Source of the DNA: a bacterium UBP8_UBA817
GTDB taxonomy: Bacteria > Margulisbacteria > Marinamargulisbacteria > CAMDBA01
Length of the DNA: 64,000 nucleotides
Assembly: GCA_945888995.1 (NCBI GenBank)
Contig: CAMDBA010000003.1
Location: 64,279 to 128,278 of the forward strand
Reading direction: 5' to 3'
Shown: positions 41,812 to 60,700 of the stretch, one piece after another
How the letters are laid out: each line of letters opens with the position of its first letter
Position numbering within the stretch: position 1 is the stretch's first letter
Translations under genes and position numbers: made by a program
Notes under the pieces: generated by a model
Seen by the model: the letters and a program-made list of their open reading frames with translations, nothing else
Told to the model about the DNA's origin: nothing
Databases searched by the model: none

Positions 41812-42403
41812 CATCATTATCTGTATTTTTATAGTGACAGGAACAGCGCAAGTACAAGCCGACAGCTTGTATGATCGTAATCAGCCTTCCTTATTCAGCA
41901 CGGCCCGTCCTCCTAAAATCGGGGACGTGATCACCGTCTATGTGTCAGAAGCCTCTTCAGCGGCACAACAAGCCGGCACTAACACCTCTAAATCATCCAG
42001 CATTCAGGGAACATTTACTGATATCTGGAATCAGGTAGCCAACCCCGGCAGCAGCGAATCTTCACGTAAAGACAAGCAGATACAAATCGGCGGGGGTGAC
42101 AAGTATACCGGCGCAGGTAAAACTACCCGTACAAGCCAAGTCAAAGCCATTGTATCCGTAATGGTGACAGAAATCCTGGAAAACGGAAACCTATACATCG
42201 TCGGCGACCATCAGGTCAAAGTAAATGACGAAGCCGAAACCATTCACATTACAGGCATCATCCGTCCGATCGATATCGGACCTAACAACAGCATTTATTC
42301 GTACCAAATCGCCAAAGCCGAGGTTTCGGTTAAAGGCACCGGTGTTGTAGCTTCTAAGCAAACACCCGGCATCCTCACAAAAATGTTTGATTGGTTATTC
42401 TAA
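41786..42403 (+). CDS. flgH: flagellar L-ring protein FlgH
   Basis: Signal peptide then DSLYD, and FlgH core motifs (GDVITVYVSE, GNLYIVGDHQVKVNDE, ITGIIRPIDI). Confidence 0.9.
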   Translation: MCILRLLFSIIICIFIVTGTAQVQADSLYDRNQPSLFSTARPPKIGDVITVYVSEASSAAQQAGTNTSKSSSIQGTFTDIWNQVANPGSSESSRKDKQIQIGGGDKYTGAGKTTRTSQVKAIVSVMVTEILENGNLYIVGDHQVKVNDEAETIHITGIIRPIDIGPNNSIYSYQIAKAEVSVKGTGVVASKQTPGILTKMFDWLF

Positions 42404-43489
42404 ATGATATTAAAAAAACTAGCCCTCTGTTTATTAATTGTCTTACTCTTTTCTCAAACACTTCACGCGGAAGCTCAGCCTGTAAGGCTCAAAGATATTG
42501 GTAAAATCATCGAAGACAGGGGCAATCAGCTCTTAGGATTCGGATTGGTTGTAGGGTTACGGGGAAGCGGAGATTCCAGAGCCTCATTGTTCACGACAAA
42601 AGCCTTGACCAATTTACTTAAAAAATTGGGAATCACACCGGATGAGAAAGACTACTCATCACGAAATGTCGCAGCCGTTATGGTCACGACAACGCTGCCT
42701 GCTTTCGTGAAAAAAGGCCAGCAAATTCCCGTTGTCGTTTCCTCAATCGGAGATAGCACCAGCTTAGTCGGAGGAACCTTGCTGCTAACACAGCTTCAGG
42801 GATCGGACCTCGTGACCTATGCCGTAGCACAAGGACCCATTGTAGTCGGTGGATTTTCCGAGCAAACCTCTCGAGTGATGTATTCAAAGAACCAGTCTAC
42901 CGTAGGAAGCATTCCTCAAGGCGCGATTGTTGAAACCGAAATCCCGACAACCCTTCTGGATAGCACGAGCATCACCATTGTATTAAACAGAGCGGATTTT
43001 TTAACCGCCTCACGTGCAGCAAAAGCCATTCAAAACGCAGGCTTCCCAGGTGCCGTTGCGCTGGACTCCAACACCATTCGCATCCCTGTGCCAATACTCG
43101 ACAGTACGACATTCGTCGATACGGTGGCCCGATTGGAAAGTATTAAATTCGTACCGGATTCATCATCAAAAATTGTCGTAAATTCAAAAACCGGCACCAT
43201 TGTTATTGGTGAAATGGTCCGCTTATCTCCGGTGGCGATTACACACGGCAATATTTCAGTAAAAATTGCCGATCCCGATGAGTTCGGCTATATGCCAATA
43301 GAGGCCACTGAAGCCCCGTTAATTGTCAAAGAAAATGCAAGCAAACTTATTTATTTAAAACCAGATTCAACATTATCCAGCCTTGTAAAAGCGCTTAATG
43401 ACATCGGCGCAACGCCTAAAGATCTCATTTCCATTATCCAGGCGCTCAAAGAAGCCGGTGCGCTGGTTGCCACGATTGAAGTTTTATAG
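42404..43489 (+). CDS. flgI: flagellar P-ring protein FlgI
   Basis: Signal peptide, then VRLKDIGKIIEDRGNQLLGFGLVVGLRGSGD, and a C-terminal LNDIGATPKDLISIIQALKEAGAL. Confidence 0.95.
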   Translation: MILKKLALCLLIVLLFSQTLHAEAQPVRLKDIGKIIEDRGNQLLGFGLVVGLRGSGDSRASLFTTKALTNLLKKLGITPDEKDYSSRNVAAVMVTTTLPAFVKKGQQIPVVVSSIGDSTSLVGGTLLLTQLQGSDLVTYAVAQGPIVVGGFSEQTSRVMYSKNQSTVGSIPQGAIVETEIPTTLLDSTSITIVLNRADFLTASRAAKAIQNAGFPGAVALDSNTIRIPVPILDSTTFVDTVARLESIKFVPDSSSKIVVNSKTGTIVIGEMVRLSPVAITHGNISVKIADPDEFGYMPIEATEAPLIVKENASKLIYLKPDSTLSSLVKALNDIGATPKDLISIIQALKEAGALVATIEVL

Positions 43490-43492
43490 CCT

Positions 43493-43831
43493 ATGAGCAG
43501 CTTCGATCTGTCGCCGGTTTTTTCCCAGATAAATACCATTTCGCAGGCTAACTACTCAAAAATGGATAAAACGGAAAGAGCGAATGTCGAATTCCAAACC
43601 TTTTTGCTAAAAGAAATTTATCTTAAGTCTCTCGTCGCAAAATCTGAATTAATGAATGATGATGAGGAAGAAGCAGCAAACGAAGATCGGGATAGCAATA
43701 TTCCCAATCTCTCAAAAGGCCAAGTAGATACATATAATGACATTATGACTAACAACTTAGCTTATAAACTCGCTAAAGAAGATGTGTTCGGATTTAATAG
43801 GGTATTACAAAAAAGGGGGCCTAGTCTCTGA
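43493..43831 (+). CDS. rod-binding protein (FlgJ N-terminal domain-like, no muramidase domain)
   Basis: 112 aa. EFQTFLLKEIYLKSL and a C-terminal NNLAYKLAKEDVFGFNRVL resemble the rod-binding domain. Position directly after flgI. Confidence 0.55.
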   Translation: MSSFDLSPVFSQINTISQANYSKMDKTERANVEFQTFLLKEIYLKSLVAKSELMNDDEEEAANEDRDSNIPNLSKGQVDTYNDIMTNNLAYKLAKEDVFGFNRVLQKRGPSL

Positions 43832-43875
43832 GCCAGAAACAAGCCGTTAATATCGATAATTTAAAACATCAAGAA

Positions 43876-44589
43876 GTGGTTCAAAAAAAACACCAGGAAA
43901 AAATCCCGGCAGAATTTATTGAAGAACACCTCTCGATTATTGAGTCCGTCGCATCTGGCTTATCGGTAGGTGGCAAGCTGCCGCCCGGCATTGTTTTCGA
44001 AGATCTGGTCAGTTGGGGCGTCGAAGGTATTATTAAAGCCCGTAAGAGCTATGATCCGGATAAAGGCACGCAGTTTACAACCTATGCCTATTATCGGATC
44101 CGAGGCGAAATGTTGGACCGAATTCGTCGAGAGTGGAATTACCGGAACCCATCCGATTACAAACTCCAACAAGAGCGTATTCAGCAACGCATTGCTGAGA
44201 TGACCCGCGATTCTGTTGATTACGACGAAAACGGTAGCGGATCTGAAGAAGAAAAAGTCTCTCACTTAATCGCCAGTTCTGCCGTTGTATATTTACTTTC
44301 TTTGGAAGACATCAATATCGCCTCAACAATGCACGGCACGATGGACCCCGCAATAGAAGTCATCGACGAAGTGGAGCGGCTTCAAGACAAATCTGATCTT
44401 TGGGCTGAAATTAAAAATTTAGCTGAAGATGAGAAAAAAATCATCGAAATGTTCTACATTCAAGAAATGAAGCAAAAAGATATTGCCGAAAAACTTAACT
44501 TGTCTCGAAGTAAAGTCTGTCGCATTCATATGAAAGTGCTCGAAAAATTACGTCGGCGGCTACAGCGGCGGTTTAACCAACAAAACTAG
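43876..44589 (+). CDS. fliA: flagellar sigma factor FliA (sigma-28 family)
   Basis: Region 2 (FEDLVSWGVEGIIKARKSYDPDKGTQFTTYAYYRIRGEMLD) and a region 4 HTH (QKDIAEKLNLSRSKVCRIHMKVLEKLR). 237 aa, GTG start. Confidence 0.85.
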   Translation: MVQKKHQEKIPAEFIEEHLSIIESVASGLSVGGKLPPGIVFEDLVSWGVEGIIKARKSYDPDKGTQFTTYAYYRIRGEMLDRIRREWNYRNPSDYKLQQERIQQRIAEMTRDSVDYDENGSGSEEEKVSHLIASSAVVYLLSLEDINIASTMHGTMDPAIEVIDEVERLQDKSDLWAEIKNLAEDEKKIIEMFYIQEMKQKDIAEKLNLSRSKVCRIHMKVLEKLRRRLQRRFNQQN

Positions 44590-44593
44590 CGCT

Positions 44594-45025
44594 ATGAAAA
44601 AAAATCTTATCGCTCTTTTTTCTATTTTTTTTATCACACTACTTAGCCCTATCTGGGGTGCGGTAAGTCATAATACACGGACAAGCATCGATCCACCGCG
44701 ACGGCCTACCCTTATCGACAGTGTTATTTATGACCCGGTCTCACAGAAAGTTCGGAACGAAATTTACGCAACCAGTAAACGTCAGTCTGTCTATTCCTAT
44801 AATATTGCCAATTCAGCAACACCCGGATTTCGCCCGGTTCACCTTCCAAACGACCCCTCTGACATGAATACCCTCGGATCGAACGATACTAGTGGAGACT
44901 TTAACCTCGAATCAGAAATGGCCAAAATGAATGATAATAGAATGCGCCAAATGACCTTACTCAAAATCCTGTCGACCCGAAGCGCAATCCGTCAAAAAAT
45001 CATCACCATGGGAAAAGGAGGTTAA
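44594..45025 (+). CDS. flgB: flagellar basal-body rod protein FlgB (with N-terminal signal peptide)
   Basis: Rod motif SYNIANSATPGFRP and a C-terminal helical region. The N-terminus is MKKNLIALFSIFFITLLSPIWGAVS. Confidence 0.8.
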   Translation: MKKNLIALFSIFFITLLSPIWGAVSHNTRTSIDPPRRPTLIDSVIYDPVSQKVRNEIYATSKRQSVYSYNIANSATPGFRPVHLPNDPSDMNTLGSNDTSGDFNLESEMAKMNDNRMRQMTLLKILSTRSAIRQKIITMGKGG

Positions 45026-45027
45026 GT

Positions 45028-45477
45028 ATGCTTAAAGTAGGATTAATCATACTAAGCGGACTACTCATCCTCTCGTCCGGCGCTTGGGCCAACGGTTCGG
45101 ATGAAGCAATGGCCATCAGCACGAAAGGTATTTTAATTCAAAAAGCCCGGCTGAGATTAGTGGCAGAAAACGTTGCCAACGTTAATACGCTCAAGACCTC
45201 TACCGGACGTCCTTATCAGAAAAAAACAGCCTTAGTCGGCTCGGATAAAAACGGGGTAAAGCTGATCGGTATTCAAAAAAGCACTGCGCCGTTCCCTAAA
45301 AGATACGACCCGGCAAATCCTGCGGCGGACGATGAAGGCTTTGTTTATTTACCTAATGTAAATCTTGCAGAAGAAATGGTAGATTTGAGTTATACTAATA
45401 TATTGTATGATGCCAATCTCACTGCATATAAATCAGCTAAGAGCATGTACCAACAAGTTATTGAAATACTTAAATAA
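45028..45477 (+). CDS. flgC: flagellar basal-body rod protein FlgC (with N-terminal signal peptide)
   Basis: Perfect AAGGAGG SD 6 nt upstream. RLRLVAENVANVNT and a C-terminal LPNVNLAEEMVDLSYTNILYDANLTAYKSAKSMYQQVIEI. The N-terminus is MLKVGLIILSGLLILSSGAWANG. Confidence 0.9.
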   Translation: MLKVGLIILSGLLILSSGAWANGSDEAMAISTKGILIQKARLRLVAENVANVNTLKTSTGRPYQKKTALVGSDKNGVKLIGIQKSTAPFPKRYDPANPAADDEGFVYLPNVNLAEEMVDLSYTNILYDANLTAYKSAKSMYQQVIEILK

Positions 45478-45488
45478 AGGAGTCTTAA

Positions 45489-45836
45489 ATGCCCACAATT
45501 GATCCGATCACTTCACTTAACCTCGTAAACAACCTTAAAACAAACACTGTGGAAGAGGTTGTCTCACCTAAAAACGTCGAACCTCTCTTAAGAAAAGAAG
45601 GCCTACATGTCACGCCCTTCCAACAATTTTTGGATCAGGCGGTAGAAGCACTTCAGGGCATCAGTAATATTGAATTCAAAGCCAATGACCTCTCTCAACA
45701 ATATATAGAGGGCACCGCATCCGTCGAAGATGCTGTCTTTTCTACCAGCAAATTAAATATGGCCATGTCATTAGCAACGTCGGTAGTAAACTCCAGCATT
45801 CAAACCTTTAAAGAAATCCAACAGATTCAGGTTTAG
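45489..45836 (+). CDS. fliE: flagellar hook-basal body complex protein FliE
   Basis: 115 aa. F(Q)QFLDQAVE...NDLSQQY and a C-terminal helix ending TFKEIQQIQV. AAAGGAG RBS. Confidence 0.85.
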   Translation: MPTIDPITSLNLVNNLKTNTVEEVVSPKNVEPLLRKEGLHVTPFQQFLDQAVEALQGISNIEFKANDLSQQYIEGTASVEDAVFSTSKLNMAMSLATSVVNSSIQTFKEIQQIQV

Positions 45837-45865: not shown

Positions 45866-47542
45866 GTGTCAGACGAAGATATTGATTTAGACGAGGAATC
45901 CTCCTCCCACTCAGGGTTTCTTAGTAAAAAACGACTCTTATTTTTTGGTGTAATTGCAGCAGTATTATTGCTCATTATCTTCTTGGTATTCCTACGCTCT
46001 CCGAGTAATGGAAAAAAGAAAATAATGAACGCCAATTTAACCAAAGAAGAACGGTCGTCGCTTTTACAGGACGAACAGGTTAAAGAACTAGAAGTCGCCC
46101 AAAAAAAAGAGCTAGAACGCCTCTCCAAAGTCAAATACGAAAAGCTATATGAACAGCTATCCGGCGACCAAGCCGCGAATGTATTACAAGAGCTCAGTTT
46201 CGATGGCATTTTGTTCAAGACCGAACAAAAGGGTAAATATTACAACATCATGGTCGACAAAAACCGGTTTGTCGAAGCCCAGAACAAGCTCGCGATCAAA
46301 GGCCTGCCTTCAGGTGGAATCAAAGGCTATGAAATATTCGACAATGCGTCGAATATGGGTGTCACGGAATTCGATAAACGAATCAGGCTGGTTCGTGCAC
46401 TATCCGGTGAGCTTGAAAAAGCCATTATGCAAATTAACGGCATTATCAGTGCCAAGGTCCAAGTGGTTATGCCGGAACAACGGCTATTTACCGTCTCACA
46501 GCCCCCTGTCACAGCCGCCATTCTGATTCGGAAATCACTAGGTAAAGTCATTGATGACGAAATGGTCTATGGCATTATTCAATTGGTTGCGAACGCCGTT
46601 GAAAATCTTCAGCCTGAAAACGTCAGCCTAGTCGATACAGACGGACATGTTCTCTCGACCGGGGTATTTGAGCGCATTGCCGAAAAATACCGTAAAAAGA
46701 ACATTGCACTGCCCTACAGCAACAAATTATACCCCAATCACTTCGCGGATCTTCCTGTCGATGAATTAGGTCTCAATCCCTCAACAGATGACCCGACATT
46801 GCTCGGCGTCCATGACACGGTTAAAAGCTGGCTGAAAGCTCAAAAAGAATACGAAAAAAACCTGACCGAGAAAATTAAGCTCTTTTTAATGGGTCTATTA
46901 CCTGAAAAGAGCTATAAAATCGCGCTCAGCACCGAAGTAAATCCCGAATCCAGCAAAGGATTCGTAATTAAACGTACGTCCGTTGGGATTCTCATCAATA
47001 AAAAATATCCCTCGCTTTATACAACCGCAAAAAAAGCAGAGATTACACGAGCGATTTCCGGTGCAATCGGGTACAATCGTCAACGTGATTTTATCCAAGT
47101 AAACCCTGTTGACTTCTCGTTTTTCACCTCAGAAACGGTCGCAACGCCTGAAATAAAAGCGATTCCACAAGTAGTCGCACCTGTAGTCGTCCTCAAAGCC
47201 CCGGATCAGAAAAAATCGATGGGCATCAAGATGAAGACAGAAAAAGCAACCCAACATTGGGCGCATATACTAAAAAAATACTGGCGCTACATTGCCGTCG
47301 TAGGAGGCGTTATATTAGCCATCGGGCTTGTCGGTTTCTTGATTCGCCGCTGGCGGATCGCCAAATCGCATGAAGTCCACCTCGGCGGAACCAGAGAAAC
47401 AGACTTTTCGTCGATCAGCCGTGAAATTAACGGTGAGAAGAAAATAGAACGGCTCCGAGAGATTGCCCTCCAAAACCCAGCCGCTCTGGCACATCTAATG
47501 GAAGAATGGCTCCAATCCGAATATGAAGAGGTCGCATTATAA
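45866..47542 (+). CDS. fliF: flagellar MS-ring protein FliF
   Basis: N-terminal TM helix, a YscJ/FliF ring-building domain (LSGDQAANVLQELSFDGILFK...), a second TM helix near the C-terminus and a C-terminal FliG-binding helix. GTG start with a GGAAGGAAGGA RBS. Confidence 0.9.
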   Translation: MSDEDIDLDEESSSHSGFLSKKRLLFFGVIAAVLLLIIFLVFLRSPSNGKKKIMNANLTKEERSSLLQDEQVKELEVAQKKELERLSKVKYEKLYEQLSGDQAANVLQELSFDGILFKTEQKGKYYNIMVDKNRFVEAQNKLAIKGLPSGGIKGYEIFDNASNMGVTEFDKRIRLVRALSGELEKAIMQINGIISAKVQVVMPEQRLFTVSQPPVTAAILIRKSLGKVIDDEMVYGIIQLVANAVENLQPENVSLVDTDGHVLSTGVFERIAEKYRKKNIALPYSNKLYPNHFADLPVDELGLNPSTDDPTLLGVHDTVKSWLKAQKEYEKNLTEKIKLFLMGLLPEKSYKIALSTEVNPESSKGFVIKRTSVGILINKKYPSLYTTAKKAEITRAISGAIGYNRQRDFIQVNPVDFSFFTSETVATPEIKAIPQVVAPVVVLKAPDQKKSMGIKMKTEKATQHWAHILKKYWRYIAVVGGVILAIGLVGFLIRRWRIAKSHEVHLGGTRETDFSSISREINGEKKIERLREIALQNPAALAHLMEEWLQSEYEEVAL

Positions 47543-48057
47543 TGATTAGCGGTAAACAAAAAGCCCAATTACTACTTGCCTATCTGGGACCGGTCGGAAA
47601 AAACGTCCTCCAGAAACTTTCTGCTGAAAGCGCCACATTCCTGACCTCCCATGTCGAAAATGTAGCCACCGGTGATCCGGCTTTATTATCGGCTATTTAT
47701 GAAGAAGTCGAAGAAAAATTAACCGAAAGCCCCGCCGACTCGTTCGCACAAACGCAGCAAGAAGATGAAGAAGTCTATTCAGATTTCGGAGATGAAGCCA
47801 GTCCAAGCGAACCCGAAACAGCACCCGCGATTGCGGCCGGATATAATTTCCGACAAATGGCCTCATTACTGACTCATGAAAAACCTCAGATCATTGCATT
47901 TAGCCTTTCAAAAATGGAAGAAAGCTTAAGAAACAATATTATAGAATGCCTTCCTGATGATGTCAGGCAAGACGTGGAGAGGCGTTCGATTGAGGCCATT
48001 CCGCTATCAGACAAGGTATTTGATAGTATCTGGGCTAAGCTGACTAGCGTTAATTAA
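47542..48057 (+). CDS. fliG: FliG-like protein comprising only the N-terminal and middle (ARM-M) domains
   Basis: GKQKAQLLLAYLGPVGKNVLQKLSAE (FliG-N) and LLTHEKPQIIAFSLSKMEESLRNNIIECLPDDVRQDVERR (EHPQ-type middle domain). 171 aa versus about 330 for canonical FliG. ATGA-type overlap with fliF. Confidence 0.65.
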   Translation: MISGKQKAQLLLAYLGPVGKNVLQKLSAESATFLTSHVENVATGDPALLSAIYEEVEEKLTESPADSFAQTQQEDEEVYSDFGDEASPSEPETAPAIAAGYNFRQMASLLTHEKPQIIAFSLSKMEESLRNNIIECLPDDVRQDVERRSIEAIPLSDKVFDSIWAKLTSVN

Positions 48058-48064
48058 TAGATCT

Positions 48065-48089
48065 GAGCACCGGGGGCGCTACGGTGCTC
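48065..48089 (+). terminator. GC-rich hairpin just after the fliG-like stop
   Basis: GAGCACCG (48065-48072) / CGGTGCTC (48082-48089) with a 9-nt loop. Confidence 0.4.
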
Positions 48090-48155
48090 CGTCCCATTGA
48101 TTCACCACTCATTCACTCCGTGGACCCTCCCGGATGGAATCTAGGTATAAACCGA

Positions 48156-48189
48156 ATCCGCCATTCCCCTGAAGACGGGAATGGCGGAT
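48156..48189 (+). terminator. 13-bp hairpin, probable terminator of the flagellar operon
   Basis: ATCCGCCATTCCC (48156-48168) / GGGAATGGCGGAT (48177-48189) with an 8-nt loop. The T-rich tract (TCTGAATTTTT) begins a few nt downstream. Confidence 0.5.
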
Positions 48190-48314: not shown

Positions 48315-50837
48315 ATGGAATGGTTAAATAAAATTCTTAAATTGCTTTTCGGAGATCCAAAGAAAAAGCAAATCCGTGAATATTGGCCGATTGTCGAAAA
48401 AATCAATGCCCTGGAACCTGAAATTTCGGCACTGACAGATGACGAATTACGGGCCAAAACACTCGAATTCCGGGAACGCCTCGCCGCAGGTGAAACGCTA
48501 GAGGATCTATTGCCTGAAGCCTTTGCCGTGACCAGAGAAGCGAGTAAACGGGTGCTGAATATGCGCCACTTTGACGTACAGCTAATCGGTGGGGTGACCC
48601 TACACCAGGGGAAAATCGCCGAAATGAAAACCGGTGAAGGTAAGACCCTGGTATCCACCCTTCCCGCTTATCTCAATGCCTTAGAAGGAAAAGGCGTCTA
48701 CGTCGTGACGGTAAACGACTATCTGGCACGTAGAGACAGCCAATGGATGGGACAGATTTTTACCTTCCTGGGTCTTAAAGTCGGATTAATTCAAGCGGGC
48801 ATCGGCCCTGAAGAACGACTCGATGCCTATTCCTGTGATATCACCTATGGCACCAATAACGAGTTCGGGTTTGATTATTTAAGAGACCATCTTGTCTATG
48901 ACACCCATCAAGTCTGCCAAACCCGCCGCCACTACGCCATCATCGACGAAGTCGACAGCATCTTGATCGATGAAGCCCGTACACCCCTGGTCATTTCGGG
49001 GCCGATCCAGGACTCTACGTCCAAATACCTCACCATTGCCAATGAGATCCGGCATCTGCAAAAAGGAACCCACTTTACCCTGGATGAAAAACACAAAAAC
49101 ATCGTCCTGACGGAAGCCGGTATCGATAAACTGGAATCTGATCTAAAAATCGACAATATTTATTCGGTCCAAACAATGGATGTCGCCCATATCGCCGTTC
49201 AATGTCTAAAAGCGCTCAATCTGTACAGACGAGATGTGGATTATGTCATCAAAGACGATGAAGTCGTGATTGTCGATGAATTTACAGGACGGCTTTTGGA
49301 CGGCCGCCGGTATTCGGACGGACTCCATCAGGCCATCGAAGCCATCGAAAATGTCACGATCAAAGAAGAAAGTCAGACATTGGCCAGCGTCACGTTCCAG
49401 AATTACTTCAGACTCTTCCCGAAACTCAGCGGGATGACCGGAACCGCGTTAACCGAAGAAGCCGAGTTTATTAAAATCTACGGACTGGAAGTCTTAAGCA
49501 TCCCGACCCATCGCGATATGGTCAGAAAAGATATGCCGGACCTCGTCTACAAAACCAAAGAAGAAAAATACAAAGCCGTCATCGCCGAAATCAAAACTGC
49601 CCACCAAAAAGGACAGCCCGTCCTCGTCGGGACTATTTCAATCGAAACCTCCGAAATGCTCTCTACCTATCTGACCCGGCAAAACGTTCCGCATAGCGTT
49701 CTAAACGCCAAATATCACGAAAAAGAAGCCGAAATCATCTCCAAAGCCGGTCAAAAAGGCAATGTCATCATCGCGACAAACATGGCGGGACGTGGAACCG
49801 ATATCGTATTAGGCGAAGGCGTTTGCGAACTCGGCGGATTGTTTGTCATCGGCACCGAGCGGCATGAATCCCGGCGTATCGATAACCAGCTTCGCGGCAG
49901 GTCAGGCCGACAGGGAGATCCGGGGATGTCACGGTTCTATGTGGCCCTCAATGACGATCTGATGCGCCTGTTCGGATCCGACCGTATTTCACGGGTGATG
50001 GAAACATTGGGATTACCTGCGGACACGCCGATCGAACATCCATTGATCAGCCGGTCTATCGAGAAAGCCCAGAGCAAGGTTGAGCAATATTATTTTTCAA
50101 TCAGAAAACAAATTCTCCAATACGACGACGTCATGAACAAACAACGGGAAACCGTCTACGGCCTGAGAAACCAGCTGTTATTCAAACAAGACCTCGATAA
50201 AAAACTCTCCGAATTCTCCTACTCTCTCGTGACCTATTACTACGCCATGTTTTTCGGAGAAAAAGACGCCGTAGCGCCCACTGATGACATCGATAGTTTC
50301 GCTCAAAAAATGAACGTGATATTTCCGATCGATGATCTGGAAAACCTCGTGATTTCAGCTAAAACACGCAGCGCCATCACCACTCAGATATGCGAAAAAG
50401 CAGATGCACTATATCTGGCCAGAAAGGCCGAATATCCGGAAGGGCTTTTCGAAGAAGCCGTCACAAAACCGATATTGCTACTCTCTCTGGATCGCAAATG
50501 GATCGATCATTTAAATGATATGGAAGTCCTTCGCGAAGGGATCGGACTCCGGGCATGGGGTCAGAAAGATCCACTGGTCGAATACAAAATCGAGGCGTTT
50601 GAGCTCTTCGAAGAGCTCATCATCCATGTCACCGAAGAAGCACTGGAGGCCATACACCGGGCCACGTTGGTTGAAACCAGCGACATCCCTCCGATCGAGC
50701 CGCCGAAATCTATTACCTATAATACCCCTGAAGCGGCCCTCAATCCGCCTGCAGCCACCGCCCCTCAAAAGGCAGGCCGTAATGATGAATGCCCTTGCGG
50801 CTCAGGAAGGAAGTATAAAAAATGCTGCATGACTTAA
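48315..50837 (+). CDS. secA: preprotein translocase ATPase SecA
   Basis: Motor motifs MKTGEGKT and DEVDSILIDEARTPLVISG, and a C-terminal zinc-binding tail CPCGSGRKYKKCC. 840 aa. Confidence 0.98.
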   Translation: MEWLNKILKLLFGDPKKKQIREYWPIVEKINALEPEISALTDDELRAKTLEFRERLAAGETLEDLLPEAFAVTREASKRVLNMRHFDVQLIGGVTLHQGKIAEMKTGEGKTLVSTLPAYLNALEGKGVYVVTVNDYLARRDSQWMGQIFTFLGLKVGLIQAGIGPEERLDAYSCDITYGTNNEFGFDYLRDHLVYDTHQVCQTRRHYAIIDEVDSILIDEARTPLVISGPIQDSTSKYLTIANEIRHLQKGTHFTLDEKHKNIVLTEAGIDKLESDLKIDNIYSVQTMDVAHIAVQCLKALNLYRRDVDYVIKDDEVVIVDEFTGRLLDGRRYSDGLHQAIEAIENVTIKEESQTLASVTFQNYFRLFPKLSGMTGTALTEEAEFIKIYGLEVLSIPTHRDMVRKDMPDLVYKTKEEKYKAVIAEIKTAHQKGQPVLVGTISIETSEMLSTYLTRQNVPHSVLNAKYHEKEAEIISKAGQKGNVIIATNMAGRGTDIVLGEGVCELGGLFVIGTERHESRRIDNQLRGRSGRQGDPGMSRFYVALNDDLMRLFGSDRISRVMETLGLPADTPIEHPLISRSIEKAQSKVEQYYFSIRKQILQYDDVMNKQRETVYGLRNQLLFKQDLDKKLSEFSYSLVTYYYAMFFGEKDAVAPTDDIDSFAQKMNVIFPIDDLENLVISAKTRSAITTQICEKADALYLARKAEYPEGLFEEAVTKPILLLSLDRKWIDHLNDMEVLREGIGLRAWGQKDPLVEYKIEAFELFEELIIHVTEEALEAIHRATLVETSDIPPIEPPKSITYNTPEAALNPPAATAPQKAGRNDECPCGSGRKYKKCCMT

Positions 50838-51938
50838 TGCAAACGCTCTCCCGCTATCAGGAGAAACTCTATCTTCTGGGAGACTATCTTTGAGATCGCT
50901 CGACTCAAATTAGACATCGAACGTCTGGAAGCTGAAATTACCCTGCCGAGTTTTTGGGATAACAATACCCAGGCACAGGATATTTTCAGCTCTCTGACCA
51001 AGCTCAAAAAAACCGTCGAATCGTTTGAACAAACCCAGCGTCTGGCCGAAGATATCTTATTAGTGGCTAATATGGTGGCCGAAAGTGGAGATGATCCGGA
51101 CGCCATGGCCGAGCTGGAATCTGACCTCGAACAGCTCGTCAGCACTGTCGACGAACTCGAAATTCAATCCCTCTTATCCGATAAATACGATCGGTTGAAC
51201 TGCATTTTCAGCTTGAATGCTGGTGCCGGTGGAACCGATGCCCAAGACTGGGTCCAGATTATGCTCAGAATGTATGTACGGTGGTTCGAAAAACGCGGAT
51301 ATGAGTACGAAATCGTGGATCAAAGCCCCGGTGAAGAAGCCGGCATCAAATCCGTCACGATCATCGTGAAAGGGGAATTTGCCTACGGATATCTCAAAAA
51401 CGAAATCGGCATTCATCGCCTGGTCCGACTCTCTCCGTTCAATGCAAATAACAAACGTCAGACGTCTTTTGCCGCTGTGGACGTCATCCCGGAAATCGAA
51501 CAAAGCATCGATCTCGAAATCGACCCCAAAGACCTGCGGGTCGACACCTTCAGAGCCACCGGTGCAGGCGGACAGCATGTCAATAAAACCGATTCGGCGG
51601 TCCGAATTACCCATCTGCCAACCGGGATTACCGCCCAATCCCAAAGCAGCCGCTCCCAGATATCTAACCGGGAAACCGCACTCAAAATGCTGACTTCCCG
51701 CCTAGTGAAACGGATGGAAGAAGCCCAAAAAGAAAAGCTGAACGAATTACGCGGGACCCCGAAAGATATCGCGTGGGGACATCAGGTCCGCTCATACGTC
51801 TTTCACCCGTATACACTGATCAAAGACCACCGAACCGACTATCAGGAAACAGACCTGAATAAAGTCCTGGACGGTGGACTGGATCCGTTTATTCAATCCG
51901 TTCTCAAAATTAAATTAAAATCGGAGGCCCCGTCATGA
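50837..51938 (+). CDS. prfB: peptide chain release factor 2 (programmed +1 frameshift at 50888-50894)
   Basis: Frame-0 ORF ATG 50837..CTT 50890 (MQTLSRYQEKLYLLGDYL) hits TGA at 50891. The +1 frame from 50892 is continuous with the 291-aa ORF that carries SPF (RLSPFNANN) and GGQ (GAGGQHVNKT). Confidence 0.95.
50878..50894 (+). promoter_or_regulatory. prfB autoregulatory +1 frameshift site
   Basis: Internal SD-like GGGAG (50878-50882), then TAT CTT TGA G (slippery CTT plus in-frame UGA). Nearly identical to the E. coli AGGGGGTATCTTTGAC site. Confidence 0.9.
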
Positions 51939-54711: not shown

Positions 54712-57700
54712 TTAGTCTGATTCTGAGCCGTTACCATCGCCGGCTGGTGATTCTGAGTCTGAGGCTGAGGCTCCATCATTACTCAATGAGAGTGGGGGTG
54801 AGCCTGGGGAAACAACTTGAGAGAGCTTACCCGATTTAGCTCCTCTACCTAAAACAGGGACACGAGACCCCCCCCTCGAGCTTCTACCTAATGGCGTTTC
54901 ATCTGCACCAGGACTAGCCGTCATGGCGAGTAGTTTACTCCAGCGAGATTCAGAAATACTAGCACCAACAGCCGCGCGGCTACTCATTGAAATGGCTGAG
55001 CCTCCTCGTTGCCCGCCCGATACGAAGACTGCTTTAGCAGGTGGTGCAGGAATTTGAAACTTTAGATCTTTGAACAACGCCTTAAAAAGGGGGACATCCT
55101 TATATGGAGATAAGATTTCCATAATAGCGGCCTTCGGAGAACTCTCTGCAGCAGGTGCAGCTTCTGTGGCCTTCCCAGCACCCCCAGAGGCACCAGAGAC
55201 CGCGGCACTATCGGCAGGAATCAAGTGGCGCGCCGCCGCAAGACGAACTGTATCCGAATAGCCTACCTGAAGGTACTGCGCAGCCAGATCGACGCTACCC
55301 TTACTAATCGCATCCTGAATATGTGCTTCAAGCGCTGCAAGCGCTACCTGAAAAGGGTCTGTTTTCTTAGAAAGGCTTCCGAAAACCCCAGCCGAAGATG
55401 AAGATGAAACCCGTTGCTGAACAGCATTAAAGATCTCCAGAGACTCTTTAGACGGAACCCCCTCCTTAAACCTGACTACCAACGCCGCTAATGCCGCGTT
55501 TCTAGCATCAGAATTATGATCTGGGCCTAAAAATAAAATCAACTTATTCGTATTGGGAGAGGCACTGCGCGAAGAAGAGGCTGCATCCACTTGGCGCGCC
55601 TCCTCAGCTATGAACCGGACACGATCCGCTCCCTTAGAACGAATAAATGCCTTCACTTCCGAATTCGTACCCATACTCGTTGCTAAGGAAACATACACCA
55701 CGCTTTTCTGATCATCGGTTAAAAAGGGATAGAGATTCATCAATGCCCGCGCCGCCGGCAACGATGCCCCATCCTCTGATGATCCATTAGATAGAAAGTC
55801 ACCTAGAGCCGTCACAACAGCCACTGCTGAAGAGTGATTCTTATGATAAGAGAGCACCACTTCATCGATTGCCACTAGCTTCTGCGTAAGCGTCATACCC
55901 TGAAGAGTGGAAGTGACATCTGTACGGAACGCGTGAACCACAGCCCTGATGCCAGCAAGGGTCTCCTCATTACGCGCATCCTTATCACCAAACTGTTTTT
56001 TCAGAACACTGCGCATCGCATCATTCGCCTCGGCTGGACCGGCTAAGAGTTTCAAGCACGTCGCTGTCGCCGCATCCTTAACCGACTGGTCCAACCCAGT
56101 AGTCGCCAAGACCTGAAGACGTTTCACAACAACGTTGCCGCTATCCGTGCATAGCGCAGCAAATTGGCCCAGAAGCGGTACGACTTTGAATTGAACCAAA
56201 GCAAGTCCGCTGGTAGATACTCTCAGAAGGAAGTCACGCACGTCATTTGAGGTCGCCAGCTCAGGATAACTAGACATCCAGAATGCCAATAGGTCTAAAT
56301 GCTGGCTAATTGAAACAAAGTCAGGCGCGCCTTTGCTACGCAGTTTAGCGTTAACAGCCGTTGTAATATCACTTAAAATCGGGCCACCCTCGTTACCAGC
56401 GGCAATACCTTCATGAAGAGTATGAAGTGTAGATTCAGCTTTTTCAGTGGAAGGCGATTCGCGAAGGGTAGATGATGTAGATGAAGTGCTCACTACCGGA
56501 CCAGAATCCAGCGACGATAAAAAGGGAGTGCTCGATCCACCAGCAACCCCTCCACTTGAATACAATTCAGACACTTCGCCTCTCGATTTTACAGCCTCCC
56601 CTGCAGGAACGCCCATCCAGGCTAACGCCTCTGCCGCCTGAGAACGAAGCTGAGCGAACTCGGCAGCACCAGTAGCAGGGACTTTATCCTGCATAATCTC
56701 CTTAAATATAGTCTTAATACCTATTTGCACGCCCGTATCCATCAACGGATATAAAACCCGCAGAGTCTGCAAGGCCATCAACCGTTCCCGAGACGCATAG
56801 GTGACGCCCTGAGCAGGCGATGATGCAATACCCCCCACAAACCCTAACAAGGCAACCACAGCCTTACCCTCGCGCTTGTCATCGGTCATCACCCTCTTCG
56901 TAACCGCATCTAACATCATGGCCACTGCGCGTGGACGAAGCTCAAGTGAATCGCGCAGAGTCCCTAATGTATCGCCAAAGCGGTCTACAAGGTCGGAATC
57001 CGATTTTTGCGCCATTAAATCTCGAACGCCTGCAAGGACACTTTGTTTAGCCTTGTTCTCATCAGTACCCACTCGGATAGCGCCGTTCGGCATGAAGCTA
57101 GAGGGCGAGGATCCTAAACCGGCATCTTTCATCCCGATTTTCACCATATGGCGCATGTTGTTACCATCAGCATCTCCTAAACCCATCATAGCAGGATCAG
57201 AGCTATACAACTGGAAAAGTCCGTCTTTTGCCGCTTTTTCCACCACCGAAGATTTATCTTTGGCCAATTTCGCTAATAACATCACGCTTAGCTCACCACA
57301 GGTCGTACCCGCAGACGAGCCCCTTAACTTGAGCGGATGAGCGAGCCCAAGGGTGAGGACACGCCGCGCCCGTTCCCAGGACTTAGATGGATAGTCCTTT
57401 GTCAGTAAGGCCAAGTCAGTCGCCGCTTTCACCACTTCCGCCTTCAAGGCCGCATTCGGCTGCGACGCACATGAGCCAAGCAATGTGGCAATTCGAGTCC
57501 CATATACGGCTGCAATAGAGACCTCGCTATCGTTATGCGTAACCTTTAAATCCATTAAGGGTCTTAAAAAGGGGACTAGCTGTAAGGCCGTATCAACATC
57601 ATTATCCTTAAATGCCGCGTCTATCATCGGGATAAGTAGCTCTATCACTTCCTTATGCTGAGCATTGTCTTTAGAATTCACAGCAGCTTTGAGCCTATCG

Positions 57701-60700
57701 GCCAATGCAACAATCGGGCGGAACTTCTCACTAGCAGTAACTGCGCCGGAGAGCTGACCACGATAAATAGAGACCAACCGGGCAGTGTCTGCCGGCGAAA
57801 TGCTTGAAAGCGGCAGAATTCCTTTAGGCTTCGGAGAGCGAGAAGAGTCAGGCACAGAGTCGCTATCTTCACTCGTAGCTTCCACAGTCGCCTCTCCAGA
57901 CCCACCCTGCGCCAACGCCATCATAATCTCACTATGGCGACGGCGCAGTTCTGGACGATCTTTCTTAGGGGCCTCGTTCAGTGTCTTTTCGGATCCCAGT
58001 AAGCGCATGGTTTCCAGAAAGTCTCCTCGAATAGTGGCAGCGGCAGCGGCAGCGGCAGCGTCAGCGGGCTTGAGAGCGGCAGCGTCAGCGGGCTTGAGAG
58101 CGGCAGCGTCAGCGGCAGCGGCAGCGGGAATCGCATGAGCGCTAGTGTCCATAATGCTCATCAGCGTCTTCAGCTGGGCGCCAGTAAATGCCCGGCCGGA
58201 TTTGCCTTGGGTCATTTTTGTCACGAGATGCTTTAACTCTGCGAGCAAGCCAATCTGTACTTCAGTATCCTCAATATGCGCTAAGCCCTGCGCCATTTCA
58301 AGGAATGTAGTAACAGCCTGGGCATCATAATTATGAACACCCTCAACAAACACTTCCGGAACCGAATCTCCAACTGAAGCCGCTTGGAAATCCAAAACTG
58401 TATGACCACTATGGCGAACGATGCCGGGTTTGGATAATGCCAGACTGACTCGTCTGAATACGCTGATTAACTCGAGTCTAAACGCTTGCAACGAGTCTGC
58501 AGCACCTGGATATTTCATAGTCGCAAGAGTATCTAAGACGCGGACATGTACGGCAGAGTCGATCGCAGGCGAGCATTTAATCTCTGCGACTTTATCGCCT
58601 AGTAACTTACCCATACGAGGTAATAAAGTAAGAAGATTCTCATCCTTTAGATTATCGGGATTAGAAAGGAAAGAATTGGCGGTGGTAAGAAAAGCAGCTT
58701 GCAGCGCAGGCGTACTAACTAAACCAGAGGCCTTCAAACACTCAGTAAAAGGTAGATTATTGATAATAATGACCTTCGCATCAGCTTCAGGATGTCCTAG
58801 AGCCCGTAAAGTTGCGAGACTCGCATCAACATCGGCGCGACCTCTGCCTAAATACAATTCGATAGCTTTAATCAGATGAGGGTAGACACCAGGCGTGCCT
58901 TGATTTACACCAAGTGGGGCAAGAGCCGCTATAATGCCATCTACATTAGCAGGAGTCATCGCTACAGTTTCAGGCGGGAGTTTGCTCGCAACATTAATAC
59001 CGGCACATGCTGCAGGAATAGCTTGAACTTGAACCTCTAATACGCCTAGATCAGCTACAAGCTGATTAACACAGTCTATAAATGACTGTGCAGTCTGAGC
59101 CTCAGGAAGCGCGTTATACAGTGCCACAGATTGAGTAACTAGGGCACCCCGAACGGCGTCCTTATCAGCAGCTGCATCAAGTCCTCTATAAATCGCTTTA
59201 ATATCTTCAGGAGTTAAATGGGCGGGGAGAAGAGTGGCAATATTTTTGGCCTGCATCGCTCGAGCTAGATCATCCCCACCATAGTTCAAAGCAGTTAACT
59301 GTTCCCGTAATCTATTCACAGAACCAGCAAAGTCCGCTGCAGTCCCGTTATCAATTACTTGCTCCCAAACACGCTGCGCTAAAGGCTCCCGAAGTGCATT
59401 AGGAATATCATCACCCATTCCACCATCCGCTCTCACAAGATAAGTATATAAAGCAACACACGCCTCAGGCGTCAAATTCCCAGCAATGGTGGTCATAAGG
59501 GCCGTCAAAACCAGATCATGATACCGATCCAACTCATCCCCAGAGATTGTGGGAATAGCATCTAGAAAACTTACAATATGCGCTTGCAGATAGGCATTAT
59601 CCATCCTCGCAGGAAGAACTTGGGCTTGCTGCATTAAAGTCGCTAAGAAAAGGACTCTAAGCGCCGCTTGACCCTCCCCTAACTGGCCAAATTGCGCAGC
59701 CAGGCCTGCTGGATTATCAGATAATCTTGAGTGAAGAATACCAGTAAGCTGGGTAAGAGCCTCACCGCGAGGTAACCTCAGTCCCTCTACTAATACCGGC
59801 ACATAGGTCTGAACAATATGAAGAAGAGCGCCCCTATCATCGGTAGCTAGAGCTAGGACTCGGTCTAGTAAAATTGGCCGCACTACTGCCTTAGGCGCAT
59901 CACCGTTAATACCCGCATACACATCCTGAATCTGAGCAGCTGTAAGCCCATCAGGCAATTTGGCACGACATAGGTCTGCAAACTCATCCGGAGCAATTGC
60001 AGTATAAGCGGCATGAAAGTCATTCACAAACGCAATATAAGCAGCAGCCTCATTAACCTCAACTGCCTGCGCAAGCGCCGACAACCGGCTAGTCAACACA
60101 GCTTTAACCGCAGGGTCATCACCTAAATCGCCCAAATCCCCATGCGCTTCCAGTAGAGCACCAGTAGTATCCATATCCGCTACGAGAGGCCTCAGTTTAG
60201 CCCCTATAGGCAATGAATCAGCAGCAACACCCAGAGTTCTAAGAGTCTCTCGACACTCTACTACAAGACCCGTAAAGGCGCCTATCTGAACCACAGTCCT
60301 TACAAAATGAGCCGAAACAGCCGCGCCCAAGGGCGCAGATAGTAGTACCTTATCAGCAGCATTAGTTATCTCATCATGGATTCCGGCTATATCCGCTAAA
60401 GTCATATCGGCTGGCAAAAAGGGAGTAATCTGACCCGATAAGGCGTTCATTTTGACCGTAGCTGCCGCATCATCACCTGACGACAAAGCCACATGAAAAT
60501 CACGAAGATGGTTCACGAGCTGCACAAAGCCAGCTACCGCTAACCGGTCAGGAGCAGCACCAGCTAGAGTGCCAAGTTTAGCCTCAATAAGCACAAGAGC
60601 CTCATGATGCAATGGACCTAAAAGTCCAGGCGTCTCATCAGCATAGTAAGTCATTATGCTAGCCATAGTCAGATCAAGCGCAGCTAACCTAGTATTCACC

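What the first reader, a model, noticed from the sequence alone, without database searches (positions are those of the whole stretch)
47542..48057. FliG stops after its middle domain, so there is no torque-generating C-terminal domain
The 171-aa product aligns with FliG-N (GKQKAQLLLAYLGPVGKNVLQKL) and with the EHPQ-type ARM-M domain (THEKPQIIAFSLSKM...LPDDVRQDVERR). It terminates where the Gly-Gly linker, ARM-C and the charged torque helix that contacts MotA normally begin; canonical FliG is about 330 aa.

The stop at 48055-48057 is followed by three hairpins and then secA. No ORF continues in any + frame, and no fliH/fliI/fliJ follow. Such a protein could cap FliF and perhaps bind FliM, but it could not couple to stators.
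Basis: partly seen in the sequence, partly recalled or inferred. Interest (0 to 1): 0.65.

Follow-up and report, generated by a model that had tools for sequence, protein, structure and literature searches.

The report
Conserved short FliG lacking torque domain
In an uncultured marine bacterial lineage (Margulisbacteria), the flagellar rotor protein FliG encoded next to fliF is a conserved half-size protein without the part that meets the stator; a related genome has a second fliG-annotated gene beside the stator genes that probably supplies it.

Summary
ORF 47542-48057 encodes a 171-aa protein with a FliG N-terminal domain, a disordered acidic linker and a FliG middle domain, and nothing else.

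The stop codon is not an artefact. The identical gene occurs in independent assemblies, and six strain variants are all 171 aa. An exhaustive HMMER search found 111 cluster representatives; apart from two canonical FliG at the bottom of the list, all lack FliG_C.

In seven further loci the short gene is the last gene of the same operon: fliK-flhB'-flgF-flgG-flgA-flgH-flgI-flgJ'-fliA-flgB-flgC-fliE-fliF-fliG'. In five of six junctions it overlaps the fliF stop codon. Unrelated housekeeping genes always follow. The nearest named FlgI relatives are Margulisbacteria (Marinamargulisbacteria).

In the related 'Ca. Ruthmannia eludens' genome, the published RAST table lists a separate FliG directly before MotA-MotB, together with FliM, FliN, FliPQR, FlhAB and FliI.

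Best reading: FliG' is the FliF-bound adaptor, and torque generation is supplied in trans. This would be either a gene fission or a two-FliG rotor. I could not retrieve the second gene's sequence. I found no description of this arrangement in the literature searched.

The parts
47542..48057 (+). fliG' : 171-aa short FliG (N-terminal domain, linker, middle domain), including the stop codon
47551..47763 (+). FliG N-terminal ARM-like domain (residues 4-74, four helices). It corresponds to the first ~64 positions of Pfam FliG_N and is the presumed FliF-C binding module.
   Evidence: The GK[EQ]KA..LL..LG motif is conserved across the family.
47764..47847 (+). Acidic, disordered linker (residues 75-102). 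It replaces the second half of FliG_N and helix NM.
   Evidence: pLDDT is below 50 at residues 77-93. Linker length varies from 2 to 103 aa in the family, median 48.
47848..48048 (+). FliG middle (ARM-M) domain, residues 103-169, with an E-K-P-Q version of the EHPQ motif
   Evidence: Foldseek matches to 4qrm_B and 3soh_B have TM 0.66-0.70 and rmsd 2.1-2.3 A.
47540..47544 (+). TAATG overlap of the fliF stop and the fliG' start (translational coupling)
   Evidence: The same TAATG/TGATG overlap occurs in L004, L005, L013 and L017.
48055..48060 (+). Tandem stop codons TAA TAG ending fliG'
48060..48189 (+). Three stem-loops after the stop. The last (48156-48189) is a 13-bp stem followed by a T-rich tail and is the probable operon terminator.
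   Evidence: The simple terminator scan did not call it.
45866..47542 (+). fliF (558 aa) with a conserved C-terminal FliG-binding helix motif NPxx[LI]A.[LI][MV][ER].WL
37801..45836 (+). Rest of the conserved basal-body operon: fliK, stand-alone flhB C-domain, flgF, flgG, flgA, flgH, flgI, flgJ-like, fliA, flgB, flgC, fliE
   Evidence: The same order is seen in L004, L005, L011, L013 and L017.
48315..50837 (+). secA, an unrelated housekeeping gene that marks the end of the flagellar cluster

Best explanation
fliG' is the normal, selected form of the fliF-adjacent FliG in Margulisbacteria (Marinamargulisbacteria-like lineages). It is a two-domain adaptor.

Proposed mechanism:
1. It is translated in step with FliF, because the fliF stop and fliG' start codons overlap (shown).
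2. Its N-terminal ARM domain binds the conserved FliF C-terminal helices (inferred from homology and motif conservation).
3. It holds a FliG middle (ARM-M) domain below the MS ring on a flexible acidic linker (AF2 model).
4. The polypeptide itself cannot contact MotA, because helix MC, ARM-C and the charged C-terminal bundle are absent (shown).
5. The torque-generating module is most probably supplied in trans by a second fliG-family gene that sits directly upstream of motA-motB. Such a gene is annotated in the related 'Ca. Ruthmannia eludens' genome.
6. That second protein would dock on FliG' ARM-M and/or on FliM/FliN, as ARM-C stacks on ARM-M between neighbouring subunits in canonical C rings (inferred).

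In other words, the three-domain rotor protein is divided between two polypeptides, one encoded with the MS ring and one with the stator. Whether the second protein is a C-terminal fragment (true fission) or a full-length paralogue is not known.
For: Real and conserved:
- 111 representatives of 50%-identity clusters matched at E <= 1e-3, with a median length of 199 aa.
- Only the two weakest hits, P0107 and P0110, carry a true FliG_C.
- All other members end 0-10 aa after ARM-M or continue only as an acidic, Ser-rich low-complexity tail.
- Pfam found FliG_M in 94 of the 111 and FliG_N in 90.
- The gene is identical in independent assemblies, and all strain variants are 171 aa.

Partner of FliF:
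- It is always the gene after fliF.
- The TAATG/TGATG overlap occurs in 5 of 6 loci, and FliF keeps the C-terminal NPxxIAQLMExWL motif shared with canonical FliF.
- The N-terminal motif is the best-conserved part of the family.

End of operon:
- Different housekeeping genes follow in every locus.
- No FliG_C is encoded in any frame of the window or of the related loci.

Torque part elsewhere:
- The RAST table for the Marinamargulisbacterium R. eludens lists peg.420 FliG, peg.421 MotA and peg.422 MotB, about 94 genes away from FliF (peg.514).
- The same table lists FliM 1251, FliN 1252, FliP 1254, FliR 1258, FlhB 1259, FlhA 1260, FliI 232 and FlgE 763 (PMC6784892 supplement 3).

Lineage: the nearest named FlgI homologues (55-61% identity) are 'Candidatus Margulisiibacteriota' and 'Ca. 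Marinamargulisbacteria' single-cell genomes. One family member comes from such a single-cell genome.
Against: - I could not obtain the sequence of the second fliG, so its domain content is unknown. Its presence in the window's own genome is also not shown; the evidence is an automatic annotation in a relative.
- In that relative I could not confirm that a fliG' lies next to fliF. The neighbouring entries are 'hypothetical protein' and oddly interleaved trp/pab annotations.
- The canonical FliM-binding EHPQR motif is degraded in the family, so docking may not follow the canonical geometry.
- That relative's table has no entries named flagellin, FlgK, FlgL, FliD, FliS, FlgD or chemotaxis, and MotA transcripts were zero. 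Motility itself is therefore unproven.
Confidence: 0.45

Rival explanations
1. Accessory paralogue. The genome has a full-length FliG (next to motAB) that does all rotor work. FliG' is an extra FliF-binding protein. It might act as a co-folding or assembly chaperone for the FliF C-terminus. It might instead be a spacer that occupies part of the FliF C-termini and sets C-ring stoichiometry, or a brake.
For: - RAST recognised peg.420 of R. eludens as FliG but called the neighbours of FliF hypothetical. This fits a well-conserved canonical FliG plus a divergent extra one.
- Genomes with two FliG genes are known in spirochaetes (my own knowledge).
- The degraded EHPQR motif fits a protein that no longer sits in the FliM-binding register.
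Against: - Two proteins competing for the same FliF C-terminal helix would be awkward.
- The strict fliF-fliG' start/stop overlap suggests 1:1 production with FliF.
- No full-length FliG closer than FliG of other phyla appeared in the exhaustive search with the N+M query. This is weak evidence, because the family is very divergent.
Confidence: 0.28
2. Non-rotating basal body. The lineage builds a flagellum-derived envelope-spanning structure used for secretion, anchoring or something else. FliG' merely caps FliF, and no torque is generated.
For: - No FliG_C, motAB or fliMN occurs in the 64-kb window or within about 10 kb of the cluster in six relatives.
- FlgB, FlgC, FlgF and the FlgJ-like protein carry conserved Sec-type signal peptides, which is not how canonical rods are exported.
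- R. eludens has no annotated flagellin, hook-junction, cap or chemotaxis genes.
Against: - R. eludens does have annotated MotA, MotB, FliG, FliM and FliN.
- The operon keeps FliK (hook-length ruler), a FlhB C-domain protein and sigma-28. These make sense for a hook-bearing, hierarchically regulated flagellum.
- FlgG, FliE and FliK lack signal peptides and so still need a type III gate.
Confidence: 0.2
3. Artefact or recent pseudogene: a sequencing or assembly error, or a fresh nonsense mutation, that cut a normal 330-aa fliG.
For: None, beyond the short length itself.
Against: - The DNA is identical in independent assemblies.
- All strain variants are 171 aa.
- About 109 diverged homologues share the architecture.
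- Only 257 bp separate the stop from secA, with no FliG_C remnant in any frame.
Confidence: 0.02

Closest known systems
Canonical FliG (Salmonella, PDB 8UMD/8VIB; Aquifex 3HJL; Thermotoga 5TDY, 4QRM)
   Same: - The gene follows fliF directly.
- The N-terminal ARM-like domain matches the FliF-binding part.
- The ARM-M fold matches (TM 0.66-0.70 to isolated FliG_M).
- The profile aligns to Salmonella FliG residues 4-158.
   Different: - Helix MC, the Gly-Gly hinge, ARM-C and the six-helix C-terminal bundle with the charged ridge are all absent.
- The second half of FliG_N and helix NM are replaced by a disordered acidic linker.
- EHPQR is reduced to [Q/E][K/R]PQ, without the Arg.
- Many members add an acidic tail ending in aromatic residues.
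- The score against the NCBIfam FliG equivalog is 35.6 bits, against a cut-off of 226.7.
Two-FliG genomes of spirochaetes (FliG1/FliG2; from my own knowledge, not tested here)
   Same: More than one fliG-family gene per genome, only one of them in the fliF operon.
   Different: As far as I know, both spirochaete proteins are full length with a FliG_C. Here the fliF-linked copy has lost it.
Canonical flgB-flgC-fliE-fliF-fliG-fliH-fliI-fliJ operon (loci L015, L021 and L022 here)
   Same: The order flgB, flgC, fliE, fliF, fliG is kept.
   Different: - In the canonical loci FliG is 325-343 aa with FliG_C, and fliH-fliI-fliJ follow.
- Here the operon stops after the short fliG'.
- Here the operon is fused upstream to fliK, flgFG, flgAHI and fliA.
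MgtE N-terminal domain (Pfam MgtE_N), the known structural relative of FliG repeats
   Same: Weak Pfam MgtE_N hits in 30 of 111 members, and weak Foldseek hits.
   Different: There is no CBS or transporter domain. The synteny and the best hits are all flagellar.

Membership tests
FliG (flagellar rotor/switch protein; Pfam FliG_N + FliG_M + FliG_C; NCBIfam TIGR00207) | N-terminal domain that binds the FliF C-terminus | tested here: inconclusive
   - Pfam FliG_N scores 19.4 bits, below the 25-bit cut-off, and covers only positions 2-64 of 104.
- 90 of 111 family members match FliG_N at E <= 0.01.
- The fold matches 5TDY FliG_N.
- The FliF C-terminal motif is conserved.
- Binding itself was not tested.
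FliG (flagellar rotor/switch protein; Pfam FliG_N + FliG_M + FliG_C; NCBIfam TIGR00207) | Middle ARM domain (FliG_M) | tested here: met
   Pfam FliG_M scores 38.9 bits against a 25-bit cut-off. Foldseek TM is 0.66-0.70 to FliG_M crystal structures.
FliG (flagellar rotor/switch protein; Pfam FliG_N + FliG_M + FliG_C; NCBIfam TIGR00207) | EHPQR motif that binds FliM | tested here: not met
   The window protein has E-K-P-Q and an Arg at 147/148. In the family the motif reads [Q71/E32][K53/R20]P72 Q103, His is essentially absent, and the Arg is kept in 12 of 109 members.
FliG (flagellar rotor/switch protein; Pfam FliG_N + FliG_M + FliG_C; NCBIfam TIGR00207) | C-terminal domain (ARM-C plus the charged torque helix) that contacts MotA | tested here: not met
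   - No FliG_C hit for the window protein.
- A FliG_C HMM built from 7 canonical proteins hits only P0107 and P0110 among the 111 members.
- The same HMM hits nothing in six frames of the window.
FliG (flagellar rotor/switch protein; Pfam FliG_N + FliG_M + FliG_C; NCBIfam TIGR00207) | Score above the curated equivalog cut-off | tested here: not met
   TIGR00207 scores 35.6 bits against a cut-off of 226.7.
FliG (flagellar rotor/switch protein; Pfam FliG_N + FliG_M + FliG_C; NCBIfam TIGR00207) | Gene located directly after fliF in a flagellar operon | tested here: met
Split / two-polypeptide FliG (proposed here) | A separate gene in the same genome that encodes FliG_C | not testable with these tools
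   The only evidence is an annotation in a relative: R. eludens peg.420 'FliG', before MotA and MotB.

The most novel reading that the evidence does not exclude
FliG has undergone a natural gene fission in Marinamargulisbacteria. The FliF-binding N+M module stays with fliF, and the torque module (helix MC, ARM-C and the C-terminal bundle) is a separate protein encoded with motAB. Rotor assembly and torque transmission would then run through a non-covalent ARM-M/ARM-C joint.

This may be coupled to a second oddity: the proximal rod proteins FlgB, FlgC and FlgF and the FlgJ-like protein appear to be delivered by the Sec pathway rather than through the type III channel.
Probability: 0.3. Interest if true: 0.8.

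Novelty: new variant of a known kind. Interest (0 to 1): 0.62.

Why it matters
FliG is treated as a universal three-domain protein. Its single chain links the MS ring (through FliF), the switch (through FliM) and the stator (through MotA).

A whole lineage in which the FliF-linked FliG lacks the stator-facing domain has two possible meanings. Either these jobs can be separated onto two polypeptides, or a basal body is kept for something other than rotation.

Either outcome bears on several open questions:
- how torque passes from the C ring to the MS ring;
- how the C ring assembles by ARM-M/ARM-C stacking;
- what use 'half a motor' can be;
- how to score motility from genomes.

On the last point, automatic pipelines would call this protein hypothetical and could misjudge the flagellar gene set. 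The lineage is uncultured and includes an intracellular animal symbiont.

Tried and rejected
- Word-indexed protein search with the 171-aa protein found only itself. The exhaustive search was needed to see the family.
- A profile search with the 45-sequence alignment in the word-indexed database returned few members plus canonical FliG. I hoped these canonical hits were the lineage's second FliG. P0110, P0133 and P0134 turned out to be ordinary fliF-fliG-fliH-fliI operons of other organisms.
- The genome-contig scan gave one locus and the metagenome-contig scan gave four. The first attempt failed for lack of a conserved stretch. None had further flagellar genes next to the cluster.
- Extending the window: 10 kb upstream holds no flagellar genes. 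The look-up of the 2456-aa ORF to reach downstream failed.
- Rfam and tRNA scans gave no taxonomic marker.
- Literature searches for truncated or short FliG, for FliG in Chlamydiae or Melainabacteria, and for flagella in Margulisbacteria, Margulisiibacteriota or Termititenax found no description of this protein.
- I first suspected Chlamydiae, because of weak NCBIfam hits to chlamydial models. The FlgI relatives ruled this out.
- Of the 10 Pfam FliG_C matches among the 111 members, only two are confirmed by my own FliG_C HMM. I take the other eight to be ARM-repeat cross-matches. An example is L019 residues 133-192, which match both FliG_M and FliG_C weakly.
- The simple terminator scan did not call the hairpins after the stop. 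Folding supports them.
Full report
**1. The observation**

The + strand ORF 47542-48057 encodes 171 aa. Its ATG shares one base with the TAA stop of the upstream 558-aa gene (TAATG at 47540-47544). It ends in tandem stops, TAA TAG.

- Pfam finds FliG_M (E = 1.1e-9, residues 104-160).
- Pfam also finds a sub-threshold FliG_N (E = 1.6e-3, residues 2-63, covering only the first 64 of 104 model positions).
- Pfam finds no FliG_C.
- The NCBIfam FliG equivalog scores 35.6 bits against a cut-off of 226.7.

An AlphaFold2 model built on a 45-sequence family alignment has mean pLDDT 81. It shows two helical domains, residues 4-74 and 103-169, joined by a disordered acidic stretch. All leading Foldseek hits in the PDB are FliG. 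The middle domain superposes on isolated FliG_M structures with TM 0.66-0.70 and rmsd 2.1-2.3 A. A family profile aligns to Salmonella FliG residues 4-158 of 331 (E = 1.5e-14).

The 257-bp spacer before secA (48315) folds into three hairpins (z = -3.35). No frame of the 64-kb window encodes anything resembling FliG_C, whereas the same search found the canonical controls.

**2. Not an error and not a pseudogene**

The same 516-bp gene is present, base for base, in three other assemblies. The 90%-identity cluster holds six different sequences, all 171 aa, differing by 1-6 substitutions.

An exhaustive HMMER search of 1.84 billion cluster representatives returned 111 proteins at E <= 1e-3, with a median length of 199 aa. 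A FliG_C HMM built from seven canonical FliG proteins hits only the two weakest of these, P0107 and P0110. All the others fall into two groups:
- they stop 0-10 residues after the middle domain, often with an F-x-N-x-N end; or
- they continue as an acidic, Ser-rich low-complexity tail of up to 165 aa that frequently ends in aromatic residues (FSL, FSF, FFF).

Pfam sees FliG_M in 94 and FliG_N in 90 of the 111.

**3. Context and lineage**

The window carries one compact flagellar operon. Its genes, in order, are:
- fliK;
- a stand-alone FlhB C-domain gene;
- flgF, flgG, flgA, flgH and flgI;
- a small FlgJ-like gene;
- fliA (sigma-28);
- flgB, flgC, fliE and fliF;
- fliG'.

The same order, always ending in the short fliG', recurs in seven other loci:
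- L004, MAG Bpl_23;
- L005;
- L007, a Ca. Marinamargulisbacteria single-cell genome;
- L011/L012, including a 1.92-Mb contig;
- L013/L014, a 576-kb contig of a Ca. Margulisiibacteriota MAG;
- L017 and L019.

What follows differs each time: secA here, and elsewhere a nitrilase-family gene, thioredoxin-reductase-like and purA genes, or YdcZ-YbeY-DAGK. The cluster therefore ends at fliG'.

The fliF stop and fliG' start overlap (TAATG or TGATG) in five of six loci. FliF keeps the C-terminal motif NPxxIAQLMExWL that it shares with canonical FliF.

The closest FlgI homologues with organism names are 'Candidatus Margulisiibacteriota' and 'Ca. Marinamargulisbacteria' single-cell genomes, at 55-61% identity. 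By contrast, the canonical FliG proteins most similar to the family sit in ordinary flgB-flgC-fliE-fliF-fliG-fliH-fliI-fliJ operons of other organisms.

**4. What the protein can and cannot do**

- The N-terminal motif (G-K-[EQ]-K-A..LL..LG..VL..L) is the best-conserved region of the family and matches the FliF-binding ARM of FliG.
- The middle domain keeps a near-invariant Gln and mostly Pro of the EHPQ motif. The His is replaced by Lys or Arg, and the Arg of EHPQR survives in only 12 of 109 members. Canonical FliM docking is therefore doubtful.
- Helix MC, the Gly-Gly hinge, ARM-C and the charged C-terminal bundle are absent. This polypeptide cannot meet MotA. That is a direct reading of the sequence.

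**5. Is there a torque domain elsewhere?**

I could not scan the source genome. The published RAST gene table of 'Ca. Ruthmannia eludens', a Marinamargulisbacterium living inside Trichoplax H2 cells (PMC6784892, supplement 3), gives the following:

| Gene(s) | Entry (peg) |
|---|---|
| FliF | 514 |
| FliA, FlgC | 520, 518 |
| FlgI, FlgH, FlgG, FlhB-like | 304, 305, 307, 309 |
| 'Flagellar motor switch protein FliG', then MotA, then MotB | 420, 421, 422 |
| FliM, FliN, FliP, FliR, FlhB, FlhA | 1251, 1252, 1254, 1258, 1259, 1260 |
| FliQ | listed among the flagellar entries; peg number not shown in the retrieved text |
| FliI | 232 |
| FlgE | 763 |

There are no entries named flagellin, FlgK, FlgL, FlgD, FliD, FliS, FliH, chemotaxis or CheY.

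At least one member of the wider lineage therefore has stator, C-ring and export-gate genes. It also has a FliG-annotated gene beside the stator genes, far from fliF.

The table gives no lengths. I therefore cannot say whether that gene is full length or only the C-terminal part. I also could not confirm that fliG' lies next to fliF in that genome.

**6. Explanation**

The best-supported reading (confidence about 0.45) is a divided rotor protein. FliG' is made 1:1 with FliF, binds its C-terminus and presents ARM-M. A second FliG-family protein encoded with motAB supplies ARM-C and the torque helix in trans.

Rivals:
- FliG' is an accessory FliF-binding paralogue next to a complete FliG (0.28).
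- The basal body does not rotate (0.20).
- The short length is an artefact (0.02, effectively refuted).

The non-rotating reading draws some support from a second unusual feature described below, and from the missing filament and chemotaxis annotations in R. eludens. It is weakened by the presence of motAB, fliMN, fliK and sigma-28.

**7. Seen in passing**

FlgB, FlgC and FlgF carry N-terminal extensions of about 20-50 residues that look like Sec signal peptides: a basic start, a hydrophobic core and an AxA-like end. In relatives the FlgJ-like protein carries one too.

The extensions are conserved in the window and in five relatives and are absent from canonical FlgB and FlgC controls. The FlgC extension is preceded by a strong AAGGAGG ribosome-binding site. 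FlgG, FliE and FliK have ordinary N-termini. I found no report of Sec-type signal peptides on rod proteins.

**8. Novelty and score**

None of the literature searches found a description of a FliG without its C-terminal domain, or of the flagellar apparatus of Margulisbacteria. I class it as a new variant of a known kind.

Interest is 0.62. It is a conserved departure from an architecture regarded as universal, in an uncultured phylum, with a clear and cheap decisive test: a domain scan of the motA-adjacent fliG in the available genomes.

Noticed in passing
window 44594-45025 (flgB), 45028-45477 (flgC), 39480-40259 (flgF, probable start at the internal Met); also L004, L005, L011, L013, L017: The proximal rod proteins FlgB, FlgC and FlgF carry conserved N-terminal Sec-type signal-peptide-like extensions, for example MLKVGLIILSGLLILSSGAWA|NG in FlgC. 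In relatives the small FlgJ-like protein after flgI carries one too. Canonical controls lack them. FlgG, FliE and FliK have normal N-termini. This suggests Sec-dependent delivery of part of the rod.
   Followed up: partly
window 39068-39415: A stand-alone 115-aa protein consisting only of the FlhB C-terminal (autocleavage/switch) domain lies directly after fliK. It is conserved in all related loci.
   Followed up: partly
window 43493-43831: The 112-aa ORF between flgI and fliA has no Pfam hit. It carries an F..[FI]LKE[MI][FY]LK motif that, from memory, resembles the FlgJ rod-binding domain; this was not tested. Relatives (126-146 aa) add a signal peptide that the window copy lacks.
   Followed up: partly
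L004 7477-8235, L005 7723-8358, L013 13066-13707, L017 7570-8310, compared with window 45489-45836: FliE is 180-252 aa in relatives, with a long N-terminal extension, but only 115 aa in the window organism.
   Followed up: no
window 35874-37541: A 555-aa ORF with no Pfam hit heads the flagellar cluster. A 544-aa counterpart sits at the same place in L011/L012 but not in L013.
   Followed up: no
window 50837-51938: prfB (release factor 2) has the classical programmed +1 frameshift site CTT TGA G at 50887-50893, preceded by GGGAG.
   Followed up: yes
window 62589-62967: Direct repeats: 122 nt at 91% identity and 56 nt at 96% identity, spaced about 190-209 nt apart. They lie in the non-coding stretch between the giant ORF and an AAA-ATPase-like ORF that runs off the window end.
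   Followed up: partly
window 54712-62082 (- strand): A 2456-aa ORF with no Pfam hit. Its exact product is not on record in the gene-position index. The surrounding region (52-58 kb) has higher G+C (0.51-0.53) than the rest of the window (0.42-0.49).
   Followed up: no
window 16596-19784 (- strand): A 1062-aa protein whose only Pfam match is a weak FlgD Ig-like domain at the C-terminus (E = 8.6e-5, below the cut-off).
   Followed up: no
window 33109-35322 (- strand): A small secretin (351 aa, Secretin + Secretin_N) preceded by two ORFs with no Pfam hit, just upstream of the flagellar cluster on the opposite strand.
   Followed up: no
PMC6784892 supplement 3 (R. eludens gene table): This Marinamargulisbacterial symbiont has annotated rotor, stator, export-gate, rod, ring and hook genes. 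It has no entries named flagellin, FlgK/L, FliD, FliS, FlgD or chemotaxis. MotA transcripts were zero, while FliM, FliN, FlhA and FliI were expressed.
   Followed up: partly
L012 14010-15247, compared with L011: In the long-read contigs, fliF and fliA are broken into several ORFs. These are probably frameshift errors of the assemblies rather than decay.
   Followed up: no
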